DNA of 64,000 nt from Candidatus Levyibacteriota bacterium (lineage in GTDB: Bacteria; Patescibacteriota; Microgenomatia; Levybacterales; UBA12049): positions 67,778 through 131,777 of the forward strand of contig JBBSGK010000001.1 of NCBI GenBank assembly GCA_038254115.1, given 5' to 3'. The notes under the pieces were generated by a model. It ran no database searches and was not told the origin of the DNA. It saw only the letters and a list, made by a program, of their open reading frames with translations. A program made the position numbers and the translations under genes. This document shows, piece after piece, positions 1 through 38,705 of this stretch (position 1 is the first letter of the stretch; each line of letters opens with the position of its first letter).

Positions 1-336
1 TTTAAACCCGAACTGCTTAACCGTTTTGATGATGTGATAACGTTTAAACCTCTTGGTGAGGAGCAGGTCACACAAGTAGTGCAATTGATGCTTAACAGTT
101 TGACAAAAGATATGGAGGAGCAGGACATAAAGTTGGTTTTTGAGCCGGCCGTGATTGAAAAAATCGGCCAAGAAGGTTTTGATCCGGAATTTGGCGCCCG
201 CCCATTACGGCGCTATATTCAGGACAATATTGAAGACATGATCGCGCAGAAAAAATTGACAAAAGAACTTGATAGGGGAAAAACAGCTACTTTCTCAATC
301 GACGGTACAGGGGCGCTTAAGCTTACGGTTTCATAG
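1..336 (+). CDS. Clp/Hsp100-family ATPase (ClpB/ClpC-like), C-terminal fragment; the gene starts upstream of the window
   Basis: Frame 1 from base 1 reads FKPELLNRFDDVITFKPLGEE...GARPLRRYIQDNIEDMIAQ, matching the D2-small/C-terminal domain of Clp ATPases. Stop codon at 334-336. Confidence 0.8.
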   Translation, partial: FKPELLNRFDDVITFKPLGEEQVTQVVQLMLNSLTKDMEEQDIKLVFEPAVIEKIGQEGFDPEFGARPLRRYIQDNIEDMIAQKKLTKELDRGKTATFSIDGTGALKLTVS

Positions 337-5353: not shown

Positions 5354-5623
5354 ATGCCGCTTAGCACTACACAGAAACAGGAAATCATAAATGAATATCA
5401 GACAGGCAAAGGAGATACCGGATCGCCCGAGGTGCAGATAGCGCTTCTGACAAAAAGAATCACCAGGCTTGCCGAGCATCTCAAAGATCACGCGCACGAT
5501 GTGCACTCAAGACGCGGACTTCTCTCAATGATCGCCAAGAGACGAAGACTTATCAACTTTCTTAAAAAGGTTGACGAAGTACGTGTTGACGGGATCTTGA
5601 AAAAGATCGGGATGAAGGATTGA
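5354..5623 (+). CDS. rpsO: 30S ribosomal protein S15
   Basis: LSTTQKQEIINEYQ...GDTGSPEVQIALLTKRITRLAEHLKDH..HSRRGLL matches the S15 family. It sits upstream of pnp, as is typical. Confidence 0.9.
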   Translation: MPLSTTQKQEIINEYQTGKGDTGSPEVQIALLTKRITRLAEHLKDHAHDVHSRRGLLSMIAKRRRLINFLKKVDEVRVDGILKKIGMKD

Positions 5624-5723: not shown

Positions 5724-8123
5724 ATGAAAGACAATAAAACCTCAGTAAGTTTTGAATTTGCAGGAAAACAAATGACCCTTGAAACAGGCCAGCTTGCCGT
5801 GCAGGCAACAGCATCGATTTTTGCCAGGCTTGGGGACACAGTAGTTCTTGCAACCGTCGTTGAGGGCGGAAAAAGAGCCGATATTGATTATTTCCCACTG
5901 AGTGTTGATTATGTTGAAAGACTTTATGCCGGAGGTAAGATCAAAGGCAGCCGCTGGGTGAAAAGAGAAGGACGTCCAAGCGATGAAGCTATATTGTCAG
6001 GCAGACTCATTGACCGTTCCATAAGACCTCTTTTTCCCAAGTCATTTAAAAACGAAGTCCAGGTAATAGTCACTGTTTTATCAGTTGATTCAGAGAATGA
6101 AGCTGACATTCTAGCTCTTAATGCTGTCAGCGCAGCTTTGGCAATGTCCAGGATTCCATGGAACGGTCCTGTTGCCGCTGTGAGAATGGGTTATATTGAA
6201 GATAAAGATGGAGCACAAGCCGCATATCTCCCAAATCCAACGACAACTGAGGCAGAGCATTCTGTCCTGGATGTAGTTGTTTCACAAAGCAGCGAAAAAA
6301 CAGTCATGGTTGAGTCAGGAGCGCTGCAAGTGACAGAAGACGTCATGGCTTTGGCTATTGAGAAAGCGCATGATGAGACAAGAAAAGTTCTGAAAGGAAT
6401 TGAGGAGCTTGTCAAAAAAGCAGGACAGAAAAAAATAGTAGTTGAAGAAGACAAATCGCTTCAGGATGCGATTGCCCTTTTTGAAAAGACATACAAAAAA
6501 GATATAGATTCCCTCATCAAATCACGTGTCAGTAAAGAAGGAGCGGGCGATGAAACAGCTGAATTAATTACCCGTGTTACAGAAGATATAAAAGCTAAAG
6601 ATCCCAAAGCAGAAGTTGACAAAAAAATGCTTGCAAAAGCTTTGGAATATGTCATGTTCAAGATAATCCGTTCAGAGACAGTAAGTAAGAAAAAACGCGT
6701 TGACGGGCGGGGACTTGACGAGATCCGCGAAATCGGCGCGACTGTCGGGATTTTGCCAAGAACTCACGGGTCAGCGCTTTTTGAGCGTGGAATCACACAA
6801 GCCTTGAGCATCGTGACACTGGGTTCACCAAGACTTGAGCAGCTTATTGAATCAGCAGAAGGTGAGGAGATAAAGCGCTATATTCATCATTACTCAGGTC
6901 TTCCATATTCATTTGGACAAGCAGGAAGAATGGGTTTTACCTCAAGGCGTGAAATCGGACACGGAGCATTGGCGGAGCGGGCTCTTAAAGCAGTTATTCC
7001 AACGCAGCAAGACTTTCCATACACCATAAGAGTTGTATCGGAAGTTTTGTCACAAAACGGATCCAGCTCTATGGCATCAACTTGTGGCTCAACACTTGCT
7101 CTTATGGATGCAGGGGTGCCAATTACAGCGCCTGTTGCCGGAATCTCAATCGGGATGATGAGTGAGGGAGACAAATATGTTTTGTTGACAGATATTATCG
7201 GGCTTGAAGATTTTTCAGGAGATATGGATTTTAAAGTCGCCGGAACTGAAAAGGGAATTACAGCAATCCAGCTTGATGTAAAAATAGACGGATTAACTGA
7301 TGCACAGGTTGTTGAGATTCTTGCCCGGGCCAAGACTGCACGTATGCAGATTCTTGAAAAGATGCTCGCGTCTATCCCGGAGTCACGAAAAGACGTTTCT
7401 GAATACGCACCGAAGATTGAGCAAATTCAGGTGCCGGTTGATAAGATCGGTGAAATTATCGGACCCGGGGGCAAAAATATTAAAGCTATTATCGCCCAGA
7501 CCGGTGCAGATGTAGATGTAGATGACGACGGAATAGTGAGTGTTTCAGGAATTTCTGAGGAATCAGTCAGAAAAGCAGTTGATTGGATAACGGGTATGAC
7601 ACGGGACGTGACACCGGGTGAGGAATTTGAGGGAACAGTGAAAAGAATTCTTCCCTTCGGAGCTTTCGTTGAATATTTACCCGGACGTGAGGGAATGGTA
7701 CATGTCAGTAAAATGAAAAGGGGAGCTTTTGTAAAAGATCCATCTGAAGTTGTAAAAGTCGGGCAAACTGTAAAGGTAAAAGTGGAAGAGCGTGATCAGC
7801 AAGGTCGGATAAATCTAACAATGCTTGTTGATGGAGATGATAATGGTGCCCCTCCGGGCCAGGGATTTGACAGACCCAGAGAGCCTAGAGATGAAGGCCA
7901 AGGCGGTGGAGGATTCCAATCTAGACCCCAGGGTGACAGATTTAGCGGAGCATCTCACGATAGACCATTTAATAATAGAAATTCAGGCGACAGATCATTC
8001 AACAGAGATTCCGGATCAGCTCCGAAATCAGATCATCCATTGTCACAGCAGCTAAGACGTGAAAGTTCTGCAAAAGCGGCAGGAGGCCGCAAATTCCCCC
8101 CGAAAAAAAGATTTAGTAGATAA
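5724..8123 (+). CDS. pnp: Polyribonucleotide nucleotidyltransferase (PNPase) with an RG/G-rich basic C-terminal tail
   Basis: Two RNase PH domains, KH (IGPGGKNIKAI) and S1 domains. Size and rpsO-pnp synteny fit. Confidence 0.95.
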   Translation: MKDNKTSVSFEFAGKQMTLETGQLAVQATASIFARLGDTVVLATVVEGGKRADIDYFPLSVDYVERLYAGGKIKGSRWVKREGRPSDEAILSGRLIDRSIRPLFPKSFKNEVQVIVTVLSVDSENEADILALNAVSAALAMSRIPWNGPVAAVRMGYIEDKDGAQAAYLPNPTTTEAEHSVLDVVVSQSSEKTVMVESGALQVTEDVMALAIEKAHDETRKVLKGIEELVKKAGQKKIVVEEDKSLQDAIALFEKTYKKDIDSLIKSRVSKEGAGDETAELITRVTEDIKAKDPKAEVDKKMLAKALEYVMFKIIRSETVSKKKRVDGRGLDEIREIGATVGILPRTHGSALFERGITQALSIVTLGSPRLEQLIESAEGEEIKRYIHHYSGLPYSFGQAGRMGFTSRREIGHGALAERALKAVIPTQQDFPYTIRVVSEVLSQNGSSSMASTCGSTLALMDAGVPITAPVAGISIGMMSEGDKYVLLTDIIGLEDFSGDMDFKVAGTEKGITAIQLDVKIDGLTDAQVVEILARAKTARMQILEKMLASIPESRKDVSEYAPKIEQIQVPVDKIGEIIGPGGKNIKAIIAQTGADVDVDDDGIVSVSGISEESVRKAVDWITGMTRDVTPGEEFEGTVKRILPFGAFVEYLPGREGMVHVSKMKRGAFVKDPSEVVKVGQTVKVKVEERDQQGRINLTMLVDGDDNGAPPGQGFDRPREPRDEGQGGGGFQSRPQGDRFSGASHDRPFNNRNSGDRSFNRDSGSAPKSDHPLSQQLRRESSAKAAGGRKFPPKKRFSR

Positions 8124-8176: not shown

Positions 8177-9511
8177 ATGGATCCTACTGCTCAAACGCCT
8201 GCAATTCCATCTACAGATCAACCAGTTGCCACGCCCACTCCTGTTGTCAATCCCGAAGAGCAGGCGGCCGCTGCGCGCGGGGATATCCCGATGAATTCAG
8301 ATAGCAGTATTGCTGCTCAAAACGCTGCAGATAGTGCTGCATTGAGCAAACTGGAAGACATAAATACAGCACAGATGGTCAATAACGACACCACCCAGCA
8401 GGAAATAAATGGGGCATCTGGGGCTACTCAAAAGATATCGGATCATGGAAAGTCATCTGATCAGATCCGCTCTCTTGGTGAAAAAATAGAAAATGCTCCT
8501 ATTCCTCCTGATTTTAAGCAAGAATTGATTGATAGGATTTCACGTCTTGCTATGATCCGCTCATCTGCAGGGTTCCTAAGCTCTACCTACATCATGGAAT
8601 ATGAATCAACACAGCGTTATGTCAACTGGATAATAGGTATGCCATGGGATAAAAAAAGCGAAGATATACTTGATCTGACAAAAGCCCGTGAAATTATGGA
8701 TAAGAATCACTACGGTCTGGGGCCGCTCAAGCAAAGAGTGTTGGAATACATAGCAACTCTTATGTTAAATATTAAAAATTATGGGGATACAGGGAATATT
8801 ATCAAGTCCCCGATTCTTTGTATTGTAGGTTTGGCAGGAACCGGAAAAACTACATTTGCTTACTCTTTGGCTCAAGCACTGGGACGGGCTTTTGAAAGAA
8901 TTCCATTTGGAGGAATGGCTGATTCCAGAGTTCTCCGGGGACAGTCGCGTTACTTTCCGGATGCTGAGCCCGGACAGATTATAAAGCGTCTGGTTCACAG
9001 CAACACTAAGAATCCTGTAATTCTTCTTGATGAATTGGACCGTGTGACAGATACCGCAAGAGCCGATATCATGGGGGTTTTGATTGAGGTTCTGGATCCT
9101 GAACAGAATGCGCGCTTCACAGATCATTACGTTGATTATCCTTTCAATTTGCAAAACACTCTTTTTATCGCAACAGCCAACAACGTCTCAAGCGTCGCGA
9201 CAGCCGTTCTTGACCGTCTTGAGATTATTCAGATGCCCTCCTACAATGATGAGGAAAAGACAGTGATCGGGAGGGATTATGTACTTCCCAAAACAATGAC
9301 GCTTACAGGTCTGCTTCCTGAGCAATTGATTATCGACCCAACTGTTTGGGAGGGACTTATCAGACCGCTTGGATATGATCCCGGCATCCGTGGACTTGAT
9401 AGATTGATTACAGGAATGTGCCGCAAAGCAGCCACGCAAATAGTTCTGGGTCAAGCCCAAACTGTAAAAATAACCAATGAGAATGTAAAACAATTTTTAC
9501 CGGAGTGGTAA
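8177..9511 (+). CDS. Lon-like AAA+ ATPase module without N-domain or S16 peptidase domain; low-complexity P/T/A/Q N-terminus
   Basis: Collinear with E. coli Lon residues about 250-590: HYGLGPLKQRVLEYI, Walker A GLAGTGKT, Walker B ILLDELD, EVLDPEQN, ATAN..LDR. The ORF ends at TAA 9512-9514 and the next gene is unrelated. Confidence 0.8.
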   Translation: MDPTAQTPAIPSTDQPVATPTPVVNPEEQAAAARGDIPMNSDSSIAAQNAADSAALSKLEDINTAQMVNNDTTQQEINGASGATQKISDHGKSSDQIRSLGEKIENAPIPPDFKQELIDRISRLAMIRSSAGFLSSTYIMEYESTQRYVNWIIGMPWDKKSEDILDLTKAREIMDKNHYGLGPLKQRVLEYIATLMLNIKNYGDTGNIIKSPILCIVGLAGTGKTTFAYSLAQALGRAFERIPFGGMADSRVLRGQSRYFPDAEPGQIIKRLVHSNTKNPVILLDELDRVTDTARADIMGVLIEVLDPEQNARFTDHYVDYPFNLQNTLFIATANNVSSVATAVLDRLEIIQMPSYNDEEKTVIGRDYVLPKTMTLTGLLPEQLIIDPTVWEGLIRPLGYDPGIRGLDRLITGMCRKAATQIVLGQAQTVKITNENVKQFLPEW

Positions 9512-9618
9512 TAAAAATTAAATATTAAAAATAATTTGTTATCCTGAATTTATTCCTCTAAACCTTATTTCTCATGCGTGTTTAATTTTATGTTTATCTA
9601 CTGTATAATTACTCAAGT

Positions 9619-10539
9619 ATGAAATTAGGTTTTATCGGTCTTGGGAAAATGGGAAGCCGGATGGCTCTCAAGCTTCTCAAAGAAGGTCATGATGTAACAG
9701 TTTGGAACCGCTCGCCTCAGCCGGTTGAGGCTCTCAAATCATATATTCCGGATTTGAAGTCAGCACCGACTATTGAAGAGTTGGTAAAAAGTTTGGAAAA
9801 GCCCCGCGTTGTATGGCTTATGCTGCCTGCAGGAGAATCAACTGAGGGGATTTTGTCCCAAGTTGAGAAGCTTGTTGAGAAAGATGACATCGTAATTGAC
9901 GGAGGAAATTCCAAATTTAGCGATACTGACAGACATTTTGAAAATTTCAAGAGTCAGGGCGTGCGTTTCCTGGGAATTGGTGTATCAGGAGGGGTGGTCG
10001 CTGAGAAGACAGGTTATCCTCTTATGGCAGGAGGAGATAGATCTGCTTACGATTATATAACTCCAATTCTGGGCTCTCTCGCAAAGTCTCAGGGAGGACA
10101 TGAGTATTTCGGAACTGGTGGAGCGGGACATTATGTAAAAATGGTGCACAATGCTATAGAGTATGGATATATGCAGTCAATTGGTGAAGGATTTGGCGTG
10201 ATGGAAAAATCATCTTATGATTTGGATTTACTAAAAGTAGCCAAGATTTATGACAGTGGGTCGTTGATCTCAGGATTTATGATGCAGCGCACGATCGAAG
10301 CGCTTGAGAGCGATCCGCATTTGGATACATTCGCAGGTGTCATTGGTTCGGCATCAGGAGAAACAATCTGGACAATTGAAGAAGCGAAGAAAAATAATTT
10401 ATTGATCGATATTATTGATAGGTCTCAGAAAATAAGAACAGAGTCAGAGACAGATGGGAAGATCCAGAACTCCTTTGCTGCCAAAATGGTAGCAGCTCTT
10501 CGGGCCGCCTTCGGCGGTCACCCTGTTAAGAAGAAATAA
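9619..10539 (+). CDS. 6-phosphogluconate dehydrogenase (decarboxylating)-like, short YqeC-type NAD(P)-binding protein
   Basis: MKLGFIGLGKMGSRMALKL Rossmann motif. Length of 306 aa is typical of short Gnd-like enzymes. Confidence 0.75.
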   Translation: MKLGFIGLGKMGSRMALKLLKEGHDVTVWNRSPQPVEALKSYIPDLKSAPTIEELVKSLEKPRVVWLMLPAGESTEGILSQVEKLVEKDDIVIDGGNSKFSDTDRHFENFKSQGVRFLGIGVSGGVVAEKTGYPLMAGGDRSAYDYITPILGSLAKSQGGHEYFGTGGAGHYVKMVHNAIEYGYMQSIGEGFGVMEKSSYDLDLLKVAKIYDSGSLISGFMMQRTIEALESDPHLDTFAGVIGSASGETIWTIEEAKKNNLLIDIIDRSQKIRTESETDGKIQNSFAAKMVAALRAAFGGHPVKKK

Positions 10540-10566
10540 GGAGTTTGTAAAGAATTAAACTGTATT

Positions 10567-11061
10567 GTTTTCAGAATACTCGGAAAACTCGGTAGGCCTG
10601 AAGATCGGATATTCAGAATTTTCGGAAAGTCTGATAAGATGAGAGCATGATTAGAGATGTTACTGATCTGGAGGTTTATGGAGAATCTTTGAGATTATTA
10701 CGAAAACTCTATGAGTTTTTAAAAAAACTACCTAAATCTGAATATGACACGATAGTACAATGTAGAAAATGTGGAAAATCTATACCTGCAAACACTGCGG
10801 AAGGGTGGGCAAAAAGATCATCAGCTCCAGAGTTCAAGAGGTTTTTAAAAATTGCAATCGGATCAAGCGATGAATTAATTAGTCATCTGCGGACAGTTGC
10901 AATAATAGTTCCTCGACTATTTCAGGAATCAAAGGAGCTTGCCGGAGAATATAAAGTTTTGTCAAAAAGATTAAATACTCTTCATAAAAACTGGAAATCT
11001 GGCGTTTTCTGATTTATCTGAATGTCTTTTTTTCTGAGTATCATCTGAGTTTTCTGAAAAG
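10567..11061. repeat. Short inverted-motif arrays flanking the four-helix-bundle gene
   Basis: Left TTTTCAGAATACTCGGAAAACTCGG and ATTCAGAATTTTCGGAAAG (10567-10629). Right TTCTGA/TCTGAG repeats ending TTTTCTGAAAAG (11005-11061). The reverse complement of the right matches the left in about 16 of 18 positions over TTTTCAGAA-ACTC-G. Confidence 0.35.
10647..11012 (+). CDS. Four-helix-bundle protein (23S rRNA intervening-sequence protein / DGR Avd-like family)
   Basis: TAEGWAKRS...FLKIAIGSSDELISHL is the signature of this family. Length 121 aa. Confidence 0.7.
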   Translation: MIRDVTDLEVYGESLRLLRKLYEFLKKLPKSEYDTIVQCRKCGKSIPANTAEGWAKRSSAPEFKRFLKIAIGSSDELISHLRTVAIIVPRLFQESKELAGEYKVLSKRLNTLHKNWKSGVF

Positions 11062-11091: not shown

Positions 11092-12846
11092 ATGGACGAG
11101 AATAAGATACCTTCACCACCACCAATACCACAAAATTTACAATCACCAAATCTGCCTACTCCGGATTCTGTTTCTTTTATAGCGCTTGGAGGCCTCGAAG
11201 ATGTTACGCGTAATCTTTATGTTTATGATTATAAAGATCAGATCCTCATCGTTGATTGCGGGCTTGGATTTCCTGATGAATCGATGCTTGGCGTAGATCT
11301 TCTTCTTCCTGACATCACATATTTACTTGATGTTATAAAGACAGGCAAGAAAAAGATTATCGGTATGCTTCTCACACATGGTCATGAGGACCACATCGGA
11401 GGTACTCCATTTATTCTGCCTCAATTGATGCCAACTGGCCGGGATGATTTGAAATTCCCTATTTATGCATCGCCCCTGACAGCAGCGCTGACTAATGCAA
11501 AACTTAAAGAATACAATCTCCCTTTTTCAGTTTCAACAGTAAAATTTGAAGATCCGGATGTCAAGATCGGTCCATTTATCATCTCTTTTATACATGTTAC
11601 TCATTCTGTGCCGGATAGCGCCAACTTTTTCATCAAATCTCCTGCTGGGAATTTCTTTCATGGGAGTGATTATAAATTTGATCTGACTCCGGCAAATGGA
11701 AAAAGATCTGATTTTATCAAGATGATGAAGGCAGCTGATGAAGGCGTGACGTGCCTTATGTCTGATTGTCTGGGATCTGACAGGCCGGGACACACAAAGT
11801 CCGAGGGGAAGCTGGGGCAGAATTTTGAGCGGGCAATGCGCGACGTTAGGGGAAAATTTTTGATAACCACTTATTCCTCAAATATTTCAAGACTTAATCA
11901 AGCAATCCAAGCTGCAGAGCGTGTAAACAGGAAAGTTTGTTTTGTCGGACGGTCAATTCTTAAAGTCAAAGAAATCGGCCAAAACTTGGGGTATTTGAAA
12001 ATAAAACCGGGAACTGAAATTGATATGAGAGATGTGGGAAAATTCAAAGGCAATCAGCTGGTTTTACTCGTTGCCGGTTCCCAAGGACAGGAAAATTCAG
12101 CAATGACAAGAATCGCCAATGGCGAGCATAAAGACGTAAGGATTGGCCCGGGCGACGCCGTTGTTTTCTCAAGTGACACTATTCCTGGAAATGAGATAAA
12201 TGTAAATTCATTGGTGGACGCTATCACCAAAAGAGGCGCTCGGGTTATTGATTCAGATCCAAGCGGTTCTTTTCATGTTTCAGGACACGGATCCAAAAGT
12301 GATCATGAACTACTTGTCGCGCTCACCAAGCCCAAATATCTTCTTCCGATAAGCGGAACATATAGGCACATGGGTTATTACAAAACAATGGCTGAGGATA
12401 TGGGATATGATAAGCGGGATATTTTTCTTGTTGAGAACGGCCAGGAAGTGAGATTCAGCAAAAACTCGGTAAGACTCGGAAACAAAATCGGAATCAGAAA
12501 TATTTATGTTGATCAGGTATCAGGTGAGGAGGTAGAGAATTTTGTGATCCGCGACCGCGAGAGATTGGCAAAGGAGGGAATTGTGATAGTAATGGCTGAG
12601 ATCCGAGCGCAGGATGGGCAACTTGCTGAGAAGCCTATCATTGTTGCCCGTGGATCCTCACTGGTTGATTCTAAGGAAATAACTGATTCTATAACCTCGG
12701 AATTGGAAAGGGTGCTAGCGCCGAACAAAAGTAGGGTTACAAACTGGGTGCATTTGAGACGCTTGGTAAGCGAAACAGCACAAAAACACTTATTTAAAAA
12801 ATTCCGTACCCGTCCTCTCGTCATGCCGGTAGTAATAGAGGTATAA
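11092..12846 (+). CDS. rnj: Ribonuclease J (metallo-beta-lactamase/beta-CASP)
   Basis: LLTHGHEDHIGG motif, beta-CASP region and C-terminal domain. Length 584 aa. Confidence 0.9.
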   Translation: MDENKIPSPPPIPQNLQSPNLPTPDSVSFIALGGLEDVTRNLYVYDYKDQILIVDCGLGFPDESMLGVDLLLPDITYLLDVIKTGKKKIIGMLLTHGHEDHIGGTPFILPQLMPTGRDDLKFPIYASPLTAALTNAKLKEYNLPFSVSTVKFEDPDVKIGPFIISFIHVTHSVPDSANFFIKSPAGNFFHGSDYKFDLTPANGKRSDFIKMMKAADEGVTCLMSDCLGSDRPGHTKSEGKLGQNFERAMRDVRGKFLITTYSSNISRLNQAIQAAERVNRKVCFVGRSILKVKEIGQNLGYLKIKPGTEIDMRDVGKFKGNQLVLLVAGSQGQENSAMTRIANGEHKDVRIGPGDAVVFSSDTIPGNEINVNSLVDAITKRGARVIDSDPSGSFHVSGHGSKSDHELLVALTKPKYLLPISGTYRHMGYYKTMAEDMGYDKRDIFLVENGQEVRFSKNSVRLGNKIGIRNIYVDQVSGEEVENFVIRDRERLAKEGIVIVMAEIRAQDGQLAEKPIIVARGSSLVDSKEITDSITSELERVLAPNKSRVTNWVHLRRLVSETAQKHLFKKFRTRPLVMPVVIEV

Positions 12847-12860
12847 ATTTAGTTTCCGGC

Positions 12861-12889
12861 TTGACAACTATAGGACTTTATGATATAAT
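12861..12889 (+). promoter_or_regulatory. Consensus sigma70-type promoter TTGACA-17-TATAAT upstream of ftsK
   Basis: TTGACA (12861-12866), a 17-nt spacer, then TATAAT (12884-12889). A second TATAAT lies immediately before the ftsK start codon. Confidence 0.5.
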
Positions 12890-12977: not shown

Positions 12978-15101
12978 ATGCCCAAGAGAAGACGAAGTAG
13001 CGGAAGACGCAGGAAACCGTTTAAGCTAAAACTCAAAACAAAAACAATCTATACGATATTTGGTATAGGATTTTTCCTGCTCGGCGTATTTTTACTTCTG
13101 GTCTATATCAAGCCTACAGATTCTACAACCGTTTTGACAAATAAGCTTAATGAAATGTTCGGATCCTTGACGATTTTGGCCCCTCTTATTTTGGTTCTCA
13201 TAGGATTCTTATTCCTGCATCTAAAATTCTATTTATCACGTTTGAATGTAACAATTGGATATATCCTGCTTTTTGTTTCGCTCATAGGACTCACAAAGAG
13301 TGGTTCTATAGGAAATGGGATTTTCTCAATTCTTAAAGAGATTATTACAGTGCCTGGTGCTGACATGGTTTTTATCACAGGAATTCTTGTCGGTATTATT
13401 GTTCTTTTGGATACATCCATTGATGAGATGATTAGTTTTATCGGGAGCGTTTTCAGTACCTTAAATAAATTAATTCCAAGAAAAATATTTTCATCTTTTA
13501 AAAAAGATAAAAACTTGTTTGATAGAAATAAGCCAATGACCATAAAAGGCGGAAAGAGAGAGGAAGAGCCATTGTCTCCAAAAATTAATCAGCCTCCGGT
13601 AATACAAAAAAAGGAGCTTGAAATGCTTCCTCAGACGCTAGTAAGTAATGTTTTGGGCGGAGATACACCCGGGGTTTGGGAATATCCACCTCTTTCTCTT
13701 TTGTCTGAGGAACCCGGGAAGAAAGCCGAGCGGGGAGATATCAAGGAGATTGCCGGAACTATTGAAAAAACGCTTGATAGTTTTGGAATAGCGGCCCGCG
13801 TAGCCGAGGTCAATTTGGGTCCTGCCGTTACGCAGTATGCGCTTGAGATTGCGCAAGGTACAAAAATTTCAAAGATCACCTCTCTTACCAATGATTTGGC
13901 GCTGGCAACAGAGGCACCAACCGGTCAGATCAGAATTGAAGCACCTATTCCGGGGCGGAACTTAATTGGTATAGAAATACCTAACAGATCGCTTGAGGTA
14001 GTGACGCTTAGAACAATGCTTGCATCAGCCGCCATGCAAAAATCAAAATCCAAACTTACAGTTGCCTTGGGACTTGATGTATCAGGTAGTCCGATCGTTG
14101 TAGATATCGCAAAAATGCCACACGTTTTGGTTGCCGGTACGACGGGATCCGGAAAATCAGTACTTATCAATTCATTCATATCAAGTCTTCTATTTAGAGC
14201 ATCTCCTCAGGAAGTCCGTCTTATTCTGATTGATCCAAAGAGGGTTGAGTTCACAGGATACAATGGGATTCCGCATCTTTTGACACCTGTAATCGTTGAG
14301 TCGGATAAGATCCTTTCCGCTTTGAAATGGGCAATGGGTGAGATGGATAAAAGGTATAAAATTTTTGCAGAACGGGGAGTGCGTAACATTGATTCTTATA
14401 ACGAGCTTTCAGGATTTCAGGCACTTCCTTATATTGTTATTTTTATAGATGAGCTTGCCGATCTTATGATGTTTGCGCCGGTTGAGGTGGAGGATGCAAT
14501 AGCGCGTCTTGCGCAAATGGCCCGTGCAACCGGTATTCACTTGGTGATTGCGACCCAGAGACCATCAGTTAACGTCATCACAGGTCTTATAAAGGCCAAC
14601 GTGCCAGCTCGTATAGCATTTAGCGTTTCGTCAATGATTGACTCCCGCGTAATAATTGACTCCCCTGGTGCTGAAAAACTCCTAGGCCGTGGGGACATGC
14701 TTTATATACCGCCTGATCAGGCAAAGCCCACCCGTATTCAAGGCGCATATATTGAAAAAGAAATAAAACTACTGGTTGATTTTCTCAAATCCAAAAATTA
14801 CCCTGTTGAGTATACAGAAGAAGTAACAAGTCAGCCCTTAATAATTAAAAAAGGAGGAGCTGCTCAGGAAGGAAAGGATGGAGAGCTTGAGGAAGCGATA
14901 AGAGTTGTATGTCAGTTCAATACAGCATCCGCATCTTTTTTGCAGCGGAAAATGTCAATTGGTTACGCAAAAGCTGCCCGCATTCTTGATCAGCTTGAAG
15001 AGATGGGCATTGTCGGAATGGCAGAAGGTTCAAAACCACGGGATGTATTGGTCAGAAACGCTGAGGAATTTCTAGCCTCACAACAGCAGGGAGGGCAATA
15101 A
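12978..15101 (+). CDS. ftsK: DNA translocase FtsK/SpoIIIE
   Basis: N-terminal TM segments, Walker A GTTGSGKSV, the motor domain, and a C-terminal gamma winged-helix. Confidence 0.9.
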   Translation: MPKRRRSSGRRRKPFKLKLKTKTIYTIFGIGFFLLGVFLLLVYIKPTDSTTVLTNKLNEMFGSLTILAPLILVLIGFLFLHLKFYLSRLNVTIGYILLFVSLIGLTKSGSIGNGIFSILKEIITVPGADMVFITGILVGIIVLLDTSIDEMISFIGSVFSTLNKLIPRKIFSSFKKDKNLFDRNKPMTIKGGKREEEPLSPKINQPPVIQKKELEMLPQTLVSNVLGGDTPGVWEYPPLSLLSEEPGKKAERGDIKEIAGTIEKTLDSFGIAARVAEVNLGPAVTQYALEIAQGTKISKITSLTNDLALATEAPTGQIRIEAPIPGRNLIGIEIPNRSLEVVTLRTMLASAAMQKSKSKLTVALGLDVSGSPIVVDIAKMPHVLVAGTTGSGKSVLINSFISSLLFRASPQEVRLILIDPKRVEFTGYNGIPHLLTPVIVESDKILSALKWAMGEMDKRYKIFAERGVRNIDSYNELSGFQALPYIVIFIDELADLMMFAPVEVEDAIARLAQMARATGIHLVIATQRPSVNVITGLIKANVPARIAFSVSSMIDSRVIIDSPGAEKLLGRGDMLYIPPDQAKPTRIQGAYIEKEIKLLVDFLKSKNYPVEYTEEVTSQPLIIKKGGAAQEGKDGELEEAIRVVCQFNTASASFLQRKMSIGYAKAARILDQLEEMGIVGMAEGSKPRDVLVRNAEEFLASQQQGGQ

Positions 15102-27669: not shown

Positions 27670-28686
27670 ATGAACATTCCAACAGTTACACACAACGGTC
27701 TTTCTTTTATTAATCTAAATAAACCAACAGAGGCGGACATAAAATTTCTTAATAAAAATTTTGGTTTTAGCATGCTTAATCTTGAGGATTATCTGTACAA
27801 AACTCAAATCCCAAAGTTTGAGACATATAAGGATTATTCTTTACTTGTGCTGGATGTTCCTTTTATCCCGCAAGCAGGTAAGTCAAAAAAAGAAAGATCA
27901 GCAAACAAACCTTTTTTTATTCCAAATGCTATCTCAAATAGAATATCTCTCCCGATTTTTCCAAAAGCAGCAAGGAAAAAACGGATAAGCGTCGGTGAGG
28001 TAGATTTTTTTATTGGGAAAGACTATGTTGTAGTTCTTCACGACGAGAGTACACCGCAAATTGATGAGCTATTTGAGATGTGTAAGATTACATCAAAGCA
28101 CAGGGAAGAGTTGATGGGACGAGGCGCTGTTTATCTTCTATACCGCATTATAGATATTTTGGTTGACGGCGCTTTTTCATATATTGAGGATATTACAACG
28201 ACAATTGATGTGATTGACCGCCAGATTGAGGACAGCAAGTCTGCATCAGTCATTGAAGATATTTCCATGACTCGGCGCAATATTGTTGTTTTTGAAACTA
28301 TGATCAAGCCTGCACTTCCGATATTTGCAGACTTGGAAAAGGGGAGATATAAGGAATTGAATGGTGAGATGATGCCTTACTGGTCAAATATCCTAGACCA
28401 TTTGCAGAAAATTTGGGAGAGACTTGAGGACAATAAAGAGTTGATTCAAGGTATCTCATCAAGTCACGAATCCATTCTTTCAAATAGAAGTAACGAGCTA
28501 GTTAAATTTTTTACAGTACTTACTGCGATGTCCTTCCCATTTGTTATCGTTAACAATTTGTATTCTATGAATGTTAAGGGGCTGCCGTATGCTAATTCTC
28601 CCTGGATTGTTTGGGTGTTATTTTTGGTGATACTTGCCGGGGCAATGGTTGTAGTTGCTTATTTTAAATACCGCGACTGGCTCTAA
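27670..28686 (+). CDS. corA: CorA-family magnesium/cobalt transporter
   Basis: Two C-terminal TM segments with the YSMNVKGLP loop (GMN-motif variant). Confidence 0.85.
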   Translation: MNIPTVTHNGLSFINLNKPTEADIKFLNKNFGFSMLNLEDYLYKTQIPKFETYKDYSLLVLDVPFIPQAGKSKKERSANKPFFIPNAISNRISLPIFPKAARKKRISVGEVDFFIGKDYVVVLHDESTPQIDELFEMCKITSKHREELMGRGAVYLLYRIIDILVDGAFSYIEDITTTIDVIDRQIEDSKSASVIEDISMTRRNIVVFETMIKPALPIFADLEKGRYKELNGEMMPYWSNILDHLQKIWERLEDNKELIQGISSSHESILSNRSNELVKFFTVLTAMSFPFVIVNNLYSMNVKGLPYANSPWIVWVLFLVILAGAMVVVAYFKYRDWL

Positions 28687-29792
28687 ACTCTTACCTTAAG
28701 GCTTTCTCCTTTGAAGATAATTTTTTTAGGTTTTATAATCACTTGTCTTTCTCCAGTTTCTACATAGCCCGCATTCAAGCTTTCAAAACCATTTTTATTA
28801 ACGATTTCTTGAGCTTTCGCTATATCCTTTTCAGGAAGGAAAATTGCGTAGTCCATTCCCATATTATAAGTGTCATACATTTCATAATCGGTTAAGCCTG
28901 CATGTTCCTGAATAAATACAAATATTTCATGTGGCTCAATAATTTTATCAATAAAATATGTATAATCTTGTCTTGCACGCATTAATTTCCTCATCCCATG
29001 TCCGGTTATGTTTGAGACATAATGAATGTCGATATTTTCATCCAATAAACCCTGAATTAATTTTGCATAAATATTTGTTTTTGTTAAAAGTACCTCTCCA
29101 TATGTTTTACCGCTTGGTAATTTTGTACTATAACCTTTTGGTAGTTGTTTGGCAACTGCGCGTGTTAATGAAATTCCGTTGGCATTTACGCCACTGCTTT
29201 TAACCATCAGTATCCTGTCGCCTGATTTTAATTTTTTATCGGTTATTAATCTATCTTTACTTTTAATCATTCCAATCGCCGATCCTCCAAGCTCTGATGT
29301 TCCGGGGACAACAATACCCTTCATCGTTGGAGTTTCTCCACCGCCCCATGAGACTCCGGCGATATCGCACGCATTCTTCCATCCGTTAATAAGATCCGTC
29401 ATCCTTTTTTCATCAGATAGCCACTCATTGTCCTCAATAGCCCAGTAAGCATGAAGAACAAGAGGTGTTGCGCCTACAGTTATTAAATCATTGATAACTG
29501 TTGCGACAGTATCATGACCGATGTTGTCGTAGTAGGTTTTACCTGTAATTTTTCTGGTGTCGTCTGCGATAAGATTTTTAGTACCCAATCCTTCAATAAC
29601 CGATGCCATGAATACATTCCCTTGTTTCCAAACATATGCTGACTCACCACGGGAGTCTGAAACTTCTTCAAAACCATGTTTCTTTAGATTGATACCGGTA
29701 TTTGCTGCAGCAGATTGAGCCAGTACTTTGACTGGGTCTTTTGTGTCATAGTTATCTCCAACTTCTGAATAAGTAATTTTGTTATTTTTCAT
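28683..29792 (-). CDS. purM: Phosphoribosylformylglycinamidine cyclo-ligase (AIR synthetase)
   Basis: GLGTKNLIADD...DTVATVINDLITVGATPL is collinear with E. coli PurM GVGTKLRLA...LVAMCVNDLVVQGAEPL. Confidence 0.8.
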   Translation of the reverse strand: MKNNKITYSEVGDNYDTKDPVKVLAQSAAANTGINLKKHGFEEVSDSRGESAYVWKQGNVFMASVIEGLGTKNLIADDTRKITGKTYYDNIGHDTVATVINDLITVGATPLVLHAYWAIEDNEWLSDEKRMTDLINGWKNACDIAGVSWGGGETPTMKGIVVPGTSELGGSAIGMIKSKDRLITDKKLKSGDRILMVKSSGVNANGISLTRAVAKQLPKGYSTKLPSGKTYGEVLLTKTNIYAKLIQGLLDENIDIHYVSNITGHGMRKLMRARQDYTYFIDKIIEPHEIFVFIQEHAGLTDYEMYDTYNMGMDYAIFLPEKDIAKAQEIVNKNGFESLNAGYVETGERQVIIKPKKIIFKGESLKVRV

Positions 29793-30436
29793 AGTGATTG
29801 TATTATAGCAGGTGTTAGTTCATCAAAAGATGTAATAATTTTATCAGCACTTTTTAGTTCTTTAGGATGATGCGTTGTGGTAATTGCAATGCATTTCATG
29901 CCAGCACTTTTTGCCGATTTTATACCGTTTGAAGAATCTTCAATCACAATACAATTTTTTGGATCAACATTTAGCATTTTTGCAGTAAGTAGAAATAATT
30001 CAGGATTTGGTTTGCCTTCTGAAACCTGATCACCTCCTGAAACAACTCTAAATTTATCACGGATTCCTAGTATCTTTAAAACTAATTCTACAAAATGAGT
30101 TGGTGATCCGGAGGCAACTCCTAGTTTGTAACCCTTTAATCTATTAATCAAATCAATTATACCTGGAATTGATATAATTTGGTCGTGTGGTATTTTTTTC
30201 ATTTTCAGCCATTTTTTTCTTACTGCCTCGCTAGGAGAGTAGTTAACTGAATGTTTTATAAATTCATTTTTAAACTGTACACCGTCTTTTGTTCCTGAGT
30301 ACAATAAAGTTATTTCTTTTTCTGAGATGTCTATACCATAACTTAAAAAGATTGCGCTTTCAATTTTAGCGTGAATCCTTTCAGTATCGGAGATGACCCC
30401 ATCCATGTCAAAAATAACTGCTCTTATTTTCGTCAT
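29789..30436 (-). CDS. HAD-superfamily hydrolase (beta-phosphoglucomutase/phosphatase-like, subfamily IA)
   Basis: AVIFDMDGVISDTE motif I, and the later motifs IEDSSNG and K. Confidence 0.75.
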   Translation of the reverse strand: MTKIRAVIFDMDGVISDTERIHAKIESAIFLSYGIDISEKEITLLYSGTKDGVQFKNEFIKHSVNYSPSEAVRKKWLKMKKIPHDQIISIPGIIDLINRLKGYKLGVASGSPTHFVELVLKILGIRDKFRVVSGGDQVSEGKPNPELFLLTAKMLNVDPKNCIVIEDSSNGIKSAKSAGMKCIAITTTHHPKELKSADKIITSFDELTPAIIQSL

Positions 30437-31404
30437 ATTTTTTTGCTTAAATTCTTCATTATTCTATCTTCAATCGGGTAATCAAAAGCTTTGAAATTTT
30501 TTCCTGTTATTTTTTCGTAGACGCTGATGTAGCGTTGAGAAGTTGCTAAGATTAATTCCTGGGCCATTTCTGGTGGTCTGCCGTTGCCAGAGTAGCCCTT
30601 TTCTGCGTACCAGAGCCTTATAAATTCTTTGTCAAAATTTTCAGGTTCCAAGTTTTTGCTAAACCTTTCATCGTAAGTATTTGCTATCCAAAATCTTGAT
30701 GAATCTGGAGTATGAATTTCATCTATTAGTATAAGTTTGTCGTCATACAAACCAAATTCGTATTTTGTATCGACAAGTATTAGTCCACTTCTTTTGCATA
30801 GCCTTTGTCCATATTCAAACAATTTAAGCGAGACTTCTTCCATTTGCTCATATAGATTTTGGGGGACCAATTTTTTTCCGATAATTTCTTTTTTGGTCAA
30901 CCGCGTATCATGCCCTCCTTTACCGGTCATATCTCCGTGATATGTAGGTGTAATAACGGGTATAGGAAGTTTTTGATTTTTTTTCAAGCCGTTCGGAAAA
31001 TTAATTCCATAAATTTCCCTCTCACCTTTTTTGTATGAATCCCAAATTGATGTGACAGTAACTCCTGTCATGTATCCGCGTACTACAATTTCAATTGGAA
31101 TCAGTTCGCAGTTTTTTGAAATCAAAACATTTGGATCGGGGACTGAGATCATATGATTTGGAACAATATTTTTTGTTTTCTCAAACCAAAACTCAGCAAG
31201 CTGATTGAGTACGGCCCCTTTGAATGGAACGTATCCAAGCATGACATCAAATGCCGACTGTCGGTCAGTTGTGATAGTTATTCTTTTATCATTTTTAATA
31301 TAAAAGTCGCGGACTTTCCCCTGATGTTTTCTGCCGAGGTTTGGGAGATTTATTGTCTTTAATACATTTGGAAGTGATGTTAGAATTGTTTGTTCATTTA
31401 CCAT
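30433..31404 (-). CDS. purC: SAICAR synthetase (long form)
   Basis: GKVRDFY...TTDRQSAFD match PurC motifs. Confidence 0.9.
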
Positions 31405-31891
31405 CTTGTTTCAATTTTTCATTTTTCGCTTTTACTGTCGATTCCATATTCTTCTTGTACTGTTCGATTTTTGATTGTAACTGCGGATTTGATGTCCCCA
31501 AAATTTCAATTGCCAAAAGTCCTGCATTTTTGGCGCCATTTACAGCTACTGTCGCAACGGGTATTCCGGCCGGCATTTGGGCAATGGATACCAAAGAGTC
31601 CAGACCATCCATAGTACTTGTTTTGATAGGTACCCCAATTGTTGGTAAAGAGGTGAATGACGCGGTCATACCGGGTAAATGTGCAGCCCCCCCGGCTCCT
31701 GCTATTATTACCTTAAGGCCTTTGCCGATAGCGGACTTAGCGTATTCAGACATATAATCCGGTGTTCTGTGGGCCGAAACAATTTCCAGCTCAAAAGAAA
31801 CGCCGAACTCCTCCAACACTTTGGCTGCTTCTTGCATAACAGGGAGATCGGAATCCGAACCCATTATTATGCCGACAAGTGGTTTATTCAT
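31394..31891 (-). CDS. purE: N5-CAIR mutase
   Basis: [14 protein letters not shown]...[10 protein letters not shown]. Confidence 0.9.
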
Positions 31892-35497: not shown

Positions 35498-36144
35498 TGG
35501 TGATGATGCTTGATAGGTTCTAATCCGTCGACTTCTTCAATGAAAAAATCAACGCCATCAGTTTTTATCTTGATATATGCGGTATTTGCAATTGAATAAT
35601 CGGCAAGCTCCTTGTATGTTTTATATCCCAAGTGAACTAAGAACGTTCTCATAATTGAGGTGTGACTGATTGTCAAAACGGTCTTGTTAGGGTAGGAAAT
35701 AGCAATTTCCCGGAGCGCAGTTATAAATCGTGACATAACTTCCTCATCAGTTTCGCGTCCAACGGCAAGAGTTTTACTTTTCCATTCATCATAAGGAATG
35801 TTATACATTGTATCTATAATTTCCTTTATTTCTTTTTTTGCTTCAGCTGTAGGGCGTCCTTCCAATACTCCATGAAACCTTTCTTTCAAGTGTTCTTTGG
35901 TAAGAACGGCGAGCTTATGTTCCTCAGCAATAATTTTGGCGGTTTGCTGTGCTCTTACCAAAGGTGATGCAAAAATGACATCAAATTTAATTTTTTTAAG
36001 GTTTTTTGCCGCATCTTTCGCCTGCTCTTGCCCTTTTTCAGTTAATTCTTTATCTAGTCCGTAGGTATCAACAGGATGGTTTCCATGGGATTGTCCATGG
36101 CGTACTAGATAAATTGTGCAATAGTTTTTATCTTTCATAGTCAA
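35494..36144 (-). CDS. Histidine phosphatase (phosphoglycerate-mutase superfamily) protein
   Basis: IYLVRHGQSHGN with the RHG catalytic motif. Confidence 0.8.
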   Translation of the reverse strand: MTMKDKNYCTIYLVRHGQSHGNHPVDTYGLDKELTEKGQEQAKDAAKNLKKIKFDVIFASPLVRAQQTAKIIAEEHKLAVLTKEHLKERFHGVLEGRPTAEAKKEIKEIIDTMYNIPYDEWKSKTLAVGRETDEEVMSRFITALREIAISYPNKTVLTISHTSIMRTFLVHLGYKTYKELADYSIANTAYIKIKTDGVDFFIEEVDGLEPIKHHHQ

Positions 36145-37685: not shown

Positions 37686-37687
37686 AA

Positions 37688-38704: not shown

Positions 38705-38705
38705 G

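What the first reader, a model, noticed from the sequence alone, without database searches (positions are those of the whole stretch)
8177..9511. Lon homolog reduced to the AAA+ module, with no N-domain and no protease domain
Residues about 120-444 are collinear with the Lon A ATPase domain, and the Walker A, Walker B, sensor and Arg-finger regions are all present. The ORF terminates where the S16 Ser-Lys peptidase domain should begin, and the Lon N-domain is replaced by about 100 aa of P/T/A/Q low complexity. The next gene is unrelated, so this is not a split Lon. It could act as a stand-alone unfoldase or adaptor, or be a remnant.
Basis: partly seen in the sequence, partly recalled or inferred. 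Interest (0 to 1): 0.6.

Follow-up and report, generated by a model that had tools for sequence, protein, structure and literature searches.

The report
Lon motor without its protease
This gene belongs to a conserved family in tiny-genome Microgenomates and Dojkabacteria bacteria that keeps only the ATP-driven motor of the Lon protease, with an intact ATPase but rewired substrate-gripping loops, so it is a working gene of unknown role and not a broken Lon.

Summary
ORF 8177-9511 (+) encodes 444 aa. Residues about 93-444 are a LonA helical bundle plus AAA+ module (TIGR00763 E=2e-88, model positions 249-572 only). There is no Lon N-domain and no S16 protease domain.

It is neither an artefact nor a remnant:
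- The gene ends in two in-frame TAA stops.
- 78 homologous genome loci stop at the same residue.
- All 240 listed database homologues are AAA+ plus Lon_lid only.
- dN/dS is about 0.02-0.07, with dS saturated.
- AAA-only proteins form one clade in a rough tree, spanning the Microgenomates group and Dojkabacteria.

Walker A/B, sensor-1, the Arg finger and sensor-2 are invariant in 89 members. The Lon pore-loop-1 grip T-Y-[VI]-G is kept in about 95% of canonical Lons. Here it is replaced by x-x-P-[DE]-A-E, and an aromatic residue survives in only about half the members.

My best reading is an oligomeric ATPase that remodels proteins without degrading them, and probably not a classical threading unfoldase. 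In Microgenomates the gene sits between PNPase and RNase J. That linkage is absent in Dojkabacteria, so an RNA-decay role stays speculative.

I could not test whether the same genomes also hold a canonical Lon or a separate S16 peptidase. I found no paper or curated family for this group. I rate it a new variant of a known kind.

The parts
8177..9511 (+). Complete ORF, 444 aa, including the TAA stop. A Lon-lineage AAA+ ATPase with no N-domain and no S16 protease domain.
8177..8452 (+). aa 1-92: acidic low-complexity N-terminal extension (A/T/D/P/Q/S/N-rich, net charge -8). Found only in Levybacteria-type members. Evolves about 4 times faster than the core but is still constrained.
   Evidence: pLDDT mostly below 60; dN 0.22 against 0.054
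8453..8791 (+). aa 93-205: helical bundle and linker, equivalent to the C-terminal part of the LonA HI(CC)/NTD-3H domain (E. coli Lon about 247-340). Carries an 8-aa insertion (SAGFLSST) in the pore-facing loop around E. coli M284. The Y148 and W151 contacts are kept.
   Evidence: PMC6722904; PMC7239648
8792..9247 (+). aa 206-357: AAA+ large (alpha/beta) subdomain.
   Evidence: Pfam AAA 214-352; model and Foldseek
8828..8854 (+). Walker A, G218-LAGTGKT-T226. G218, G221, G223, K224 and T225 are invariant in 89/89 members.
8936..8974 (+). Pore loop 1, aa 254-266 (RGQSRYFPDAEPG). The Lon motif R-R-T-Y-I-G-S-M is replaced by S-R-x-[F/H/..]-P-[DE]-A-E. Low pLDDT in the model.
9017..9040 (+). Walker B, aa 281-288 (VILLDELD). 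D285 and E286 are invariant in 89/89.
9179..9181 (+). Sensor-1 N335 (E. coli N473), 89/89.
   Evidence: role from PMC7239648
9215..9217 (+). Trans-acting Arg finger R347 (E. coli R484), 89/89.
   Evidence: role from PMC7239648
9248..9508 (+). aa 358-444: AAA+ small (lid) subdomain, including sensor-2 R405 (nt 9389-9391). Conserved C-terminal tail N-[VIL]-K-x-[FY]-[LTIV]-P-x-W.
   Evidence: Pfam Lon_lid 377-427
9509..9514 (+). Two consecutive in-frame TAA stop codons, at the point where the Lon linker and protease domain would begin.
5724..8123 (+). Upstream neighbour: PNPase, with a basic low-complexity C-terminal tail of about 100 aa. Context only; conserved neighbour in Microgenomates.
11092..12846 (+). 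RNase J. It is the immediate downstream neighbour in most Microgenomates. In this window it is separated by two inserted genes (9619-10539 and 10647-11012). Context only.

Best explanation
The gene encodes a functional stand-alone ATPase descended from a LonA protease. An ancestor shared by the Microgenomates group and Dojkabacteria lost both the N-terminal substrate-recognition domain and the C-terminal Ser-Lys protease domain.

What remains is about 350 aa, the three-helix bundle plus the AAA+ module. These are the same boundaries as the stable proteolytic fragment E. coli Lon(235-584).

Shown:
- The allosteric network that couples the nucleotide site to the central loops is kept (equivalents of Y294, W297, Y456 and E458).
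- The residues with which Lon grips and threads a polypeptide (R395, Y398, I399, and the M284 loop of the helical bundle) have been replaced. In their place is a family-specific acidic loop, S-R-x-x-P-[DE]-A-E in Microgenomates. In Dojkabacteria the loop is hypervariable and Ser/acid-rich.

Inferred:
- It assembles into a ring or spiral oligomer, because the arginine finger only works between subunits.
- It burns ATP to bind, remodel or release client proteins or complexes through its acidic central loops, without degrading them. Basic or disordered segments are plausible clients.
- It is therefore a Lon-derived chaperone or remodeller, not a protease and probably not a processive unfoldase.

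The low-complexity tails (N-terminal in Levybacteria, C-terminal in many Dojkabacteria) are lineage-specific add-ons, possibly for partner or client recruitment.
For: Real and conserved:
- 120/120 best homologues (57-100% identity) are 321-539 aa, AAA+ plus Lon_lid only.
- 120/120 homologues of a Dojkabacteria member have the same architecture.
- 78 of 80 genome loci have a complete ORF, and each ends within 3 residues of the window's final residue.
- AAA-only proteins form one clade in a neighbour-joining tree of 191 Lon AAA+ modules.
- dN/dS against the closest locus is 0.02 for the core and 0.09 for the N-extension, with dS saturated.

Competent ATPase:
- K224, T225, D285, E286, N335, R347 and R405 are 89/89, and 32-33 of 33 across 50%-identity representatives.
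- Their roles follow Shin et al. 2020 (PMC7239648).

Motor coupling kept: Y294 (Y79/F8/W2), W297 (81/89), Y456 (Y81/F8), E458 (D87/E1).

Grip changed:
- In 82 canonical LonA representatives T397 is 79/82, Y398 is 78/82 and G400 is 74/82.
- In the AAA-only clade there is no Tyr at 398 (F11, H5, S3, E3...). Position 399 is P in 22/33, position 400 is D/E in 28/33, and position 402 is E in 29/33.
- An aromatic residue sits at either loop position in only 50/89 Microgenomates-type members and 47/118 Dojka-type members.

Fold: the AF2 model is confident for residues 90-444. Its best PDB matches are LonA/LONP1 AAA+ modules, and 6n2i gives a target-normalised TM-score of 0.82.

Ring-like packing without a protease domain: EcLon(235-584) packs as an open helical hexamer in the crystal (PMC6722904).

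No peptidase partner nearby: there is no Lon_C, Lon-N or ClpP-like gene in the window or the flanks of the related loci.
Against: - No biochemical data exist, and oligomerisation was not modelled.
- A Phe or Tyr does remain in the loop in about half the members, including this window's protein (Y259-F260). Some threading ability in Levybacteria-type members is therefore not excluded.
- The strongly conserved loop motif shows constraint but does not say for what.
- A partner peptidase encoded elsewhere in the genome could not be searched for.
- LonA hexamers are normally stabilised by the protease domain (general knowledge, not tested here), so a P-less protein might need a partner to assemble.
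Confidence: 0.5

Rival explanations
1. Two-component protease. The AAA-only ring is the unfoldase half of a split system, as ClpX or HslU are. It hands substrates to a peptidase encoded elsewhere (an S16 Lon_C-only protein, ClpP, or a canonical Lon on which it stacks as an extra ring).
For: - Nature does stack Lon-type AAA+ modules. About 30 representative proteins have 2-3 Lon AAA+ modules followed by one Lon_C.
- The segment right after the lid is conserved. It is ...LP-x-W at the C-terminus in Microgenomates and LPS[IV]E.[VI]R.[IK]D[YF]T in Dojkabacteria. That could be a docking element.
- A ClpB/ClpC-type gene ends at window 34-336, so the genome holds other AAA+ unfoldases.
Against: - No peptidase gene is linked to it in 80+ loci.
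- The aromatic-hydrophobic pore-loop pair that threading needs is lost or variable.
- The terminal Trp is not universal (53/89), and in Dojkabacteria the motif is internal and followed by variable tails.
- AAA-only proteins are a separate clade from the tandem-AAA Lons.
Confidence: 0.17
2. RNA-decay accessory. The ATPase works with PNPase and RNase J, for example remodelling ribonucleoprotein substrates or the basic disordered PNPase tail, as an ATP-driven component of a degradosome-like assembly in Microgenomates.
For: - The same-strand order rpsO-pnp-[AAA]-rnj-ftsK is conserved across Levy-, Gottesman-, Shapiro-, Roizman- and Woesebacteria, down to 47% identity (rnj in 72/80 loci, pnp in 67/80). 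It also holds in L083.
- The gap from the AAA stop to the rnj start is 150 nt or less in 53/71 loci.
- No terminator-like site lies between pnp and the AAA gene in the window.
- PNPase carries a basic low-complexity tail, while the AAA central loop is acidic.
Against: - In four Dojkabacteria loci the gene sits in unrelated, variable contexts.
- nusA-infB-rpsO-pnp ... rnj ... ftsK resembles an old gene order also seen in Firmicutes. This is from my own memory of B. subtilis and was not checked, so the adjacency may be inherited and not functional.
- In this window two unrelated genes are already inserted between the AAA gene and rnj.
- The E. coli Lon basic patch that I recall as DNA-binding (R306/K308/K310/K311; the source paper could not be found) is not conserved. 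V309 becomes D (86/89), K310 becomes I/L/N, and K311 becomes L (88/89).
Confidence: 0.12
3. Decaying remnant or pseudogene of a Lon that lost its protease domain recently.
For: Only the domain loss itself. NCBIfam lon scores below its cutoff.
Against: - Strong purifying selection.
- Invariant catalytic residues in 89 members.
- The same architecture in two deep candidate lineages and about 20 clusters at 50% identity.
Confidence: 0.02
4. Assembly or frameshift artefact, or a split gene, with the rest of Lon lying just downstream.
For: None found.
Against: - Tandem TAA TAA stops and only 107 nt before an unrelated gene.
- Six-frame HMM and tblastn searches find no Lon_C in the window.
- The stop position is shared by 78 independent genomes.
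Confidence: 0.01

Closest known systems
LonA proteases (MEROPS S16; E. coli Lon, B. subtilis LonA, human LONP1)
   Same: - About 35% sequence identity to E. coli Lon over the three-helix bundle, AAA+ large subdomain and lid, with E values down to 7e-72 against solved LonA chains.
- The same fold.
- The same Walker A/B, sensor-1, Arg finger and cis sensor-2.
- The same contacts between the pre-sensor-1 hairpin and the three-helix bundle.
   Different: - No N-terminal LAN domain and no S16 Ser-Lys protease domain.
- Pore loop 1 T-Y-[VI]-G is replaced by x-x-P-[DE]-A-E.
- R395 becomes S.
- A 3-8 aa insertion sits in the pore-facing loop of the helical bundle.
- Published Lon classifications (LonA, B, C, BA) state that all Lons carry both an ATPase and a protease domain (PMC9569914).
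E. coli Lon(235-584) proteolytic fragment (PDB 6N2I)
   Same: Almost identical domain boundaries: the C-terminal part of HI(CC) plus the full AAA+ module. It is the best structural match relative to target length (TM-score 0.82). It packs as an open helical hexamer in the crystal (PMC6722904).
   Different: 6N2I is a laboratory fragment of a protease. The window protein is a natural, selected, stand-alone gene with altered central loops.
Stand-alone AAA+ unfoldases of the same HCLR clade (ClpX, HslU)
   Same: A single-ring AAA+ protein encoded separately from any peptidase, and related in clade to Lon (clade assignment as in PMC7239648).
   Different: ClpX and HslU keep the G-Y-V-G aromatic pore loop, have defined docking elements (IGF loop, C-terminal tail), and usually sit next to their peptidase gene. 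That is general knowledge. None of these features is seen here.
Proteolysis-independent (chaperone-like) activity reported for Lon
   Same: The idea that the Lon ATPase can act on clients without cleaving them. I recall this from work on proteolytically inactive yeast Pim1 and E. coli Lon S679A; it was not checked here.
   Different: Those are mutants of full-length proteases with normal pore loops and N-domains. Here the protease and N-domain are absent by evolution and the loops are changed.
Tandem-AAA Lon proteases (2-3 Lon AAA+ modules plus one Lon_C), seen here
   Same: They contain Lon-type AAA+ modules that are not directly followed by a protease domain.
   Different: They are covalently linked to a terminal AAA+ and Lon_C, mostly keep an aromatic pore-loop residue, and fall in different clades. 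One is from Dependentiae.

Membership tests
LonA protease (endopeptidase La, TIGR00763 / MEROPS S16) | LonA-type AAA+ module with the preceding helical bundle | tested here: met
   TIGR00763 positions 249-572, E=2.4e-88. PDB LonA chains at E down to 7e-72. Foldseek top hits are all Lon.
LonA protease (endopeptidase La, TIGR00763 / MEROPS S16) | C-terminal S16 Ser-Lys proteolytic domain (Pfam Lon_C) | tested here: not met
   No Lon_C in the protein. No E. coli Lon 585-784 tblastn hit and no Lon_C HMM hit in any frame of the window. The ORF ends 3 residues after the lid alignment.
LonA protease (endopeptidase La, TIGR00763 / MEROPS S16) | N-terminal LAN substrate-binding domain (PF02190) | tested here: not met
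   Absent in Pfam. No N-domain HMM or tblastn hit. Deep-branching members also lack it.
LonA protease (endopeptidase La, TIGR00763 / MEROPS S16) | Curated full-length score cutoff | tested here: not met
   297.5 bits against a cutoff of 608 for TIGR00763. 234.9 bits against 891 for NF008053.
LonA protease (endopeptidase La, TIGR00763 / MEROPS S16) | Pore loop 1 aromatic-hydrophobic pair (Y398-I399 in E. coli and Y. pestis) | tested here: not met
   Canonical representatives have Y in 78/82. The AAA-only clade has Y in 0/33. The window has Y259-F260-P261-D262.
AAA+ ATPase, HCLR clade | Walker A, Walker B, sensor-1, trans Arg finger, cis sensor-2 | tested here: met
   All are 89/89 invariant. 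Roles follow PMC7239648.
AAA+ ATPase, HCLR clade | Pre-sensor-1 beta-hairpin with its conserved contacts (Y456, E458, E447 equivalents) | tested here: met
   Y318 (Y81/F8), D320 (D87/E1), E309 (E67/G19). The hairpin region is only partly confident in the model (low pLDDT at 316-319).
AAA+ ATPase, HCLR clade | Hexameric ring or spiral assembly | not testable with these tools
   Only monomer prediction is available. It is inferred from the invariant trans-acting Arg finger and from crystal packing of EcLon(235-584).
Stand-alone unfoldase partner of a chambered peptidase (ClpX/HslU type) | Genetically linked or co-occurring peptidase, plus a docking motif | tested here: inconclusive
   No peptidase lies in the window or in the flanks of 80+ loci. 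The rest of the genome could not be searched. The conserved post-lid motif is of unknown role.
Anti-phage defence ATPases (PADLOC models, including BrxL-type Lon-like proteins) | Specific match to a defence-system protein model | tested here: not met
   Only generic P-loop matches of 16-19 bits.

The most novel reading that the evidence does not exclude
Microgenomates bacteria have repurposed the Lon motor, stripped of its protease and recognition domains and given an acidic central loop, as the ATP-driven component of an RNA-decay machine built around PNPase and RNase J. Its gene is flanked by theirs in nearly every genome of the group. It could, for example, engage the basic disordered PNPase tail or strip basic proteins from RNA, a job done elsewhere by DEAD-box helicases.
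Probability: 0.1. Interest if true: 0.85.

Novelty: new variant of a known kind. Interest (0 to 1): 0.55.

Why it matters
Lon is the textbook example of an AAA+ protease in which motor and peptidase are fused in one chain. The classification paper read here describes every Lon subfamily as having both domains (PMC9569914).

A large, selected, protease-free Lon lineage with an intact ATPase but a re-engineered substrate loop is a natural experiment. It shows what the Lon motor can do on its own, and which residues are needed for ATP turnover as opposed to threading.

It also matters for annotation. JGI labels these proteins 'ATP-dependent Lon protease'. That label would wrongly credit Microgenomates and Dojkabacteria genomes with Lon proteolysis in metabolic and proteostasis reconstructions of these minimal, host-dependent bacteria.

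If the link to PNPase and RNase J turned out to be functional, it would reveal a new kind of RNA-decay accessory.

Tried and rejected
- **Frameshift or split Lon.** Rejected. There are tandem stops and an unrelated downstream gene. No Lon_C appears in six frames, either by tblastn with E. coli Lon or with an HMM built from 104 Lon C-terminal regions.
- **Remnant.** Rejected on conservation and dN/dS.
- **Defence-system ATPase.** Rejected (PADLOC).
- **HbYX- or HslU-like C-terminal docking residue.** Weakened. The terminal Trp is present in only 53/89 members. In Dojkabacteria the LP motif is internal and followed by variable tails.
- **Degenerate protease domain in the Dojkabacteria member P0167.** A 33-bit hit to my Lon_C HMM lies in Ser-rich low complexity, has almost no identities, and is not reproduced by phmmer or by other members. 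I treat it as compositional.
- **ClpP/TepA-like gene between rnj and ftsK in related loci.** None seen, only assorted insertions judged by eye from the translations.
- **Nucleic-acid binding through the E. coli Lon basic patch.** The patch is not conserved. The residue list comes from my memory, and the source paper could not be found.
- **Source record of the window.** The exact-protein look-up found nothing.
- **Literature.** Searches for AAA-only Lon, CPR or Microgenomates Lon, and tandem-AAA Lon found nothing relevant.
- **AlphaFold-database fold search.** The library was unavailable.
- **Canonical Lon or S16 peptidase elsewhere in the same genomes.** Not possible.
Full report
**What is there.**
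Window 8177-9511 (+) is a 444-aa ORF with an ATG start. It ends TGG-TAA-TAA, so a second in-frame stop follows the first.
- Pfam finds AAA (aa 214-352) and Lon_lid (aa 377-427). It finds neither Lon_C nor the Lon N-terminal domain.
- The NCBIfam endopeptidase-La model matches at E=2.4e-88. The match covers only model positions 249-572 of 795, and 297 bits is far below the 608-bit cutoff.
- Against solved structures the best hits are LonA chains: B. subtilis 3m6a at E=7e-72, the E. coli fragment 6n2i, and full-length 6u5z. Identity to E. coli Lon is about 35%. The alignments begin at query residues 77-101 and end at 441.
- Homology therefore covers the last three helices of the LonA helical domain, the AAA+ large subdomain and the lid. 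It stops 3 residues before the stop codon, where the linker to the S16 protease domain would start.
Collinearity starts near residue 90, not 120. The low-complexity N-terminus is about 90 aa, rich in A/T/D/P/Q/S/N, with net charge -8.

**Surroundings.**
The gene lies in a same-strand array:
- the end of a ClpB/ClpC-type ATPase (34-336)
- a GIY-YIG protein
- nusA and infB
- a DHH protein
- rpsO (5354-5623)
- PNPase (5724-8123)
- the AAA gene
- a 6-phosphogluconate-dehydrogenase-like protein (9619-10539)
- a 23S-rRNA-intervening-sequence protein (10647-11012)
- RNase J (11092-12846)
- FtsK (12978-15101)

The gene after the ORF is unrelated to Lon and starts after 107 nt of AT-rich spacer. tblastn with the E. 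coli Lon N-domain and protease domain finds nothing in the window. A more sensitive six-frame search used HMMs built from 104 Lon C-terminal regions and 68 N-terminal regions. It also finds nothing in the window. In 1.05 Mb of related loci its only hit is one that I judge compositional.

**Not an artefact and not a remnant.**
- The 120 best database homologues (57-100% identity) are all AAA+ plus Lon_lid only. All but a 321-aa fragment and one 539-aa protein are 412-485 aa.
- A genome scan returned 80 loci, nearly all labelled or recognisable as Microgenomates-group MAGs: Levy-, Gottesman-, Shapiro-, Roizman- and Woesebacteria. The closest locus is a Candidatus Levybacteria chromosome at 86% identity.
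- In 78 of these loci the ORF is complete and ends within 3 residues of the window's last residue, typically ...N-[VIL]-K-x-[FY]-L-P-x-W.
- A full-library profile-free search places about twenty 50%-identity clusters in this group. Canonical LonA proteins start only at about 258 bits.
- In a neighbour-joining tree of 191 Lon AAA+ modules, all AAA-only proteins form a single clade. It is distinct from canonical LonA and from multi-module Lons, and it includes Dojkabacteria members. The tree is rough and has no support values.
- A second homologue search seeded with the Dojkabacteria member again gave 120/120 AAA+-only proteins. Deep-branching members have neither a Lon N-domain nor Lon_C.
- dN/dS against the closest locus is 0.02 for the core and 0.09 for the N-terminal extension. 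dS is saturated, so these values are approximate but clearly low.

**Anatomy of the family.**
- The core is about 350 aa, corresponding to window residues 93-444. The 90-aa acidic extension occurs only in Levybacteria-type members. Most others start at the helical bundle. Many Dojkabacteria members instead carry variable low-complexity C-terminal tails, after a conserved post-lid motif LPS[IV]E.[VI]R.[IK]D[YF]T.
- In an 89-member alignment these residues are invariant: Walker A (G218, G221, G223, K224, T225), Walker B (D285, E286), sensor-1 N335, Arg finger R347 and sensor-2 R405.
- Functional roles come from the Y. pestis Lon cryo-EM study (PMC7239648). The residues that couple the nucleotide site to the pore are kept: Y294 (Y79/F8/W2), W297 (81/89), Y456 (Y81/F8) and E458 (D87/E1).
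- The residues that contact substrate are not kept. Lon R395-R396-T397-Y398-I399-G400-S-M402 becomes S(86/89)-R/K-x-[F46/H21/L5/N5/Y3/S3]-P(77)-D/E(84)-A-E(86).
- As a control, 82 canonical LonA representatives have T397 in 79, Y398 in 78 and G400 in 74. The 33 AAA-only representatives have no Tyr at that position, with P in 22/33, D/E in 28/33 and E in 29/33 at the next positions.
- An aromatic residue at either loop position is present in only 50/89 Microgenomates-type members and 47/118 Dojkabacteria-type members. In the latter the loop is hypervariable and rich in Ser and acidic residues.
- The pore-facing loop of the helical bundle, around E. coli M284, carries a 3-8 aa insertion.

**Structure.**
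An AlphaFold2 model made with a 58-sequence alignment is confident for residues 90-444 (pLDDT about 80-90). It is poor for residues 1-90 and for the pore loop at 246-263. Foldseek against the PDB returns only Lon AAA+ modules. The E. coli Lon(235-584) fragment 6n2i matches with a TM-score of 0.82 relative to its own length. [quoted passage not shown] It packs as an open helical hexamer in the crystal (PMC6722904). The natural protein therefore has the boundaries of a known stable Lon sub-structure.

**Gene context as a clue.**
- In Microgenomates the order rpsO-pnp-[AAA]-rnj-ftsK is conserved on one strand. rnj is present in 72/80 loci, pnp in 67/80, rpsO in 64/80 and ftsK in 56/80.
- The gap from the AAA stop to the rnj start is 150 nt or less in 53/71 loci, with a median of 52 nt. 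An independent 844-kb metagenome contig shows the same order.
- The two genes between the AAA gene and rnj in this window are rare insertions, seen in 3 and 2 loci.
- No terminator-like site separates pnp, the AAA gene and the next gene. A perfect consensus promoter lies before ftsK.
- However, in four Dojkabacteria loci the gene lies in unrelated and mutually different contexts. The nusA-infB-rpsO-pnp...rnj...ftsK order also resembles an old gene order that I recall from B. subtilis, which I did not check.
- I therefore treat the PNPase/RNase J adjacency as a weak functional hint.

**Most likely mechanism.**
Shown: the protein is a selected, ATP-hydrolysis-competent Lon-type AAA+ module without a protease, with a preserved allosteric core and a replaced, acidic central loop.

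Inferred:
- It oligomerises into a ring or spiral, because the invariant Arg finger acts in trans.
- It uses ATP to bind, remodel or release clients without degrading them.
- Because the Tyr-hydrophobic pincer is gone or variable, processive threading like Lon is unlikely, at least in much of the family.

I put about 0.9 on "functional AAA-only Lon-derived ATPase family". I put about 0.5 on the non-proteolytic, non-classical-threading remodeller mechanism. The rivals are:
- an unfoldase serving a peptidase encoded elsewhere, or stacking on a canonical Lon (0.17)
- an RNA-decay accessory (0.12)
- a remnant (0.02)
- an artefact (0.01)

**Comparison with what is known.**
It works most like the AAA+ half of LonA but fails the membership test for a Lon protease. 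It has no S16 domain and no LAN domain, scores below the curated cutoff, and has a non-canonical pore loop. The classification paper read here states that all Lons (A, B, C, BA) contain both ATPase and protease domains (PMC9569914). No Pfam or NCBIfam family is specific for this group. NCBI calls members "AAA family ATPase" and JGI calls them "ATP-dependent Lon protease". Eight literature searches found no description of it.

**Limits.**
- I could not search the rest of any genome for a canonical Lon or an orphan S16 peptidase.
- I could not model the oligomer.
- The tree is a quick neighbour-joining tree.
- The family alignments over-represent Levybacteria.
- The residue list for the E. coli Lon DNA-binding patch and the B. 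subtilis gene order come from my memory.

**Verdict.**
I rate it a new variant of a known kind, with interest 0.55.

Noticed in passing
Not in the window: proteins P0123-P0142, P0148, P0153-P0157, P0159, P0161, P0163, P0166, P0171 and others: About 30 representative proteins of 890-1830 aa (plus one of 2597 and one of 3865 aa) carry two or three Lon-type AAA+ modules in tandem followed by a single Lon_C protease domain. P0123, with 3 modules, is from Candidatus Dependentiae. The upstream modules keep the ATPase motifs and mostly an aromatic pore-loop residue. I found no paper describing such multi-ring Lons.
   Followed up: partly
window 7824-8123 (last ~100 aa of PNPase, gene 5724-8123): PNPase carries a G/R/D/F/S/P-rich low-complexity C-terminal tail after its S1 domain, ending in the basic motif RKFPPKKRFSR. 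Related Microgenomates PNPases also have basic tails. Levybacteria-type tails share a conserved DHPLSxQLRRE motif about 25 aa from the end.
   Followed up: partly
window 9619-11012: A 6-phosphogluconate-dehydrogenase-like gene and a 23S-rRNA-intervening-sequence-protein gene are inserted between the AAA gene and RNase J. They occur at this position in only 3 and 2 of 80 related loci, so this is a recent local insertion into an otherwise conserved array.
   Followed up: partly
window 34-336: This is the C-terminal D2-small domain of a ClpB/ClpC-type ATPase whose gene runs off the window start. The genome therefore has at least one other AAA+ unfoldase.
   Followed up: no
window 12861-12889: A perfect sigma-70 consensus promoter (TTGACA, 17 nt, TATAAT, with an upstream TG) lies just before ftsK. 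This suggests ftsK is transcribed separately from the pnp...rnj array.
   Followed up: no
L082 5846-7894 and L085 7689-8882 (Dojkabacteria loci): In two of four Dojkabacteria genomes examined, the AAA-only gene lies next to a gene for a Big_5 plus Peptidase_C39_2 protein. In one the two genes are on the same strand, in the other on opposite strands.
   Followed up: no
L085 6001-7647 (protein P0167, aa 461-546): The Ser/Asn-rich C-terminal tail of one Dojkabacteria member gives a 33-bit match to a home-made Lon_C HMM across the catalytic-Ser region. The match has almost no identities, and the catalytic Lys position is Asn. Other members and phmmer show nothing. It is probably compositional, though a fully decayed protease domain is not strictly excluded.
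   Followed up: partly
window 28683-45904 (- strand): A long same-strand run of ORFs that look, by eye from the start of their translations only, like a purine-biosynthesis gene cluster. I ran no Pfam or other check on them.
   Followed up: no
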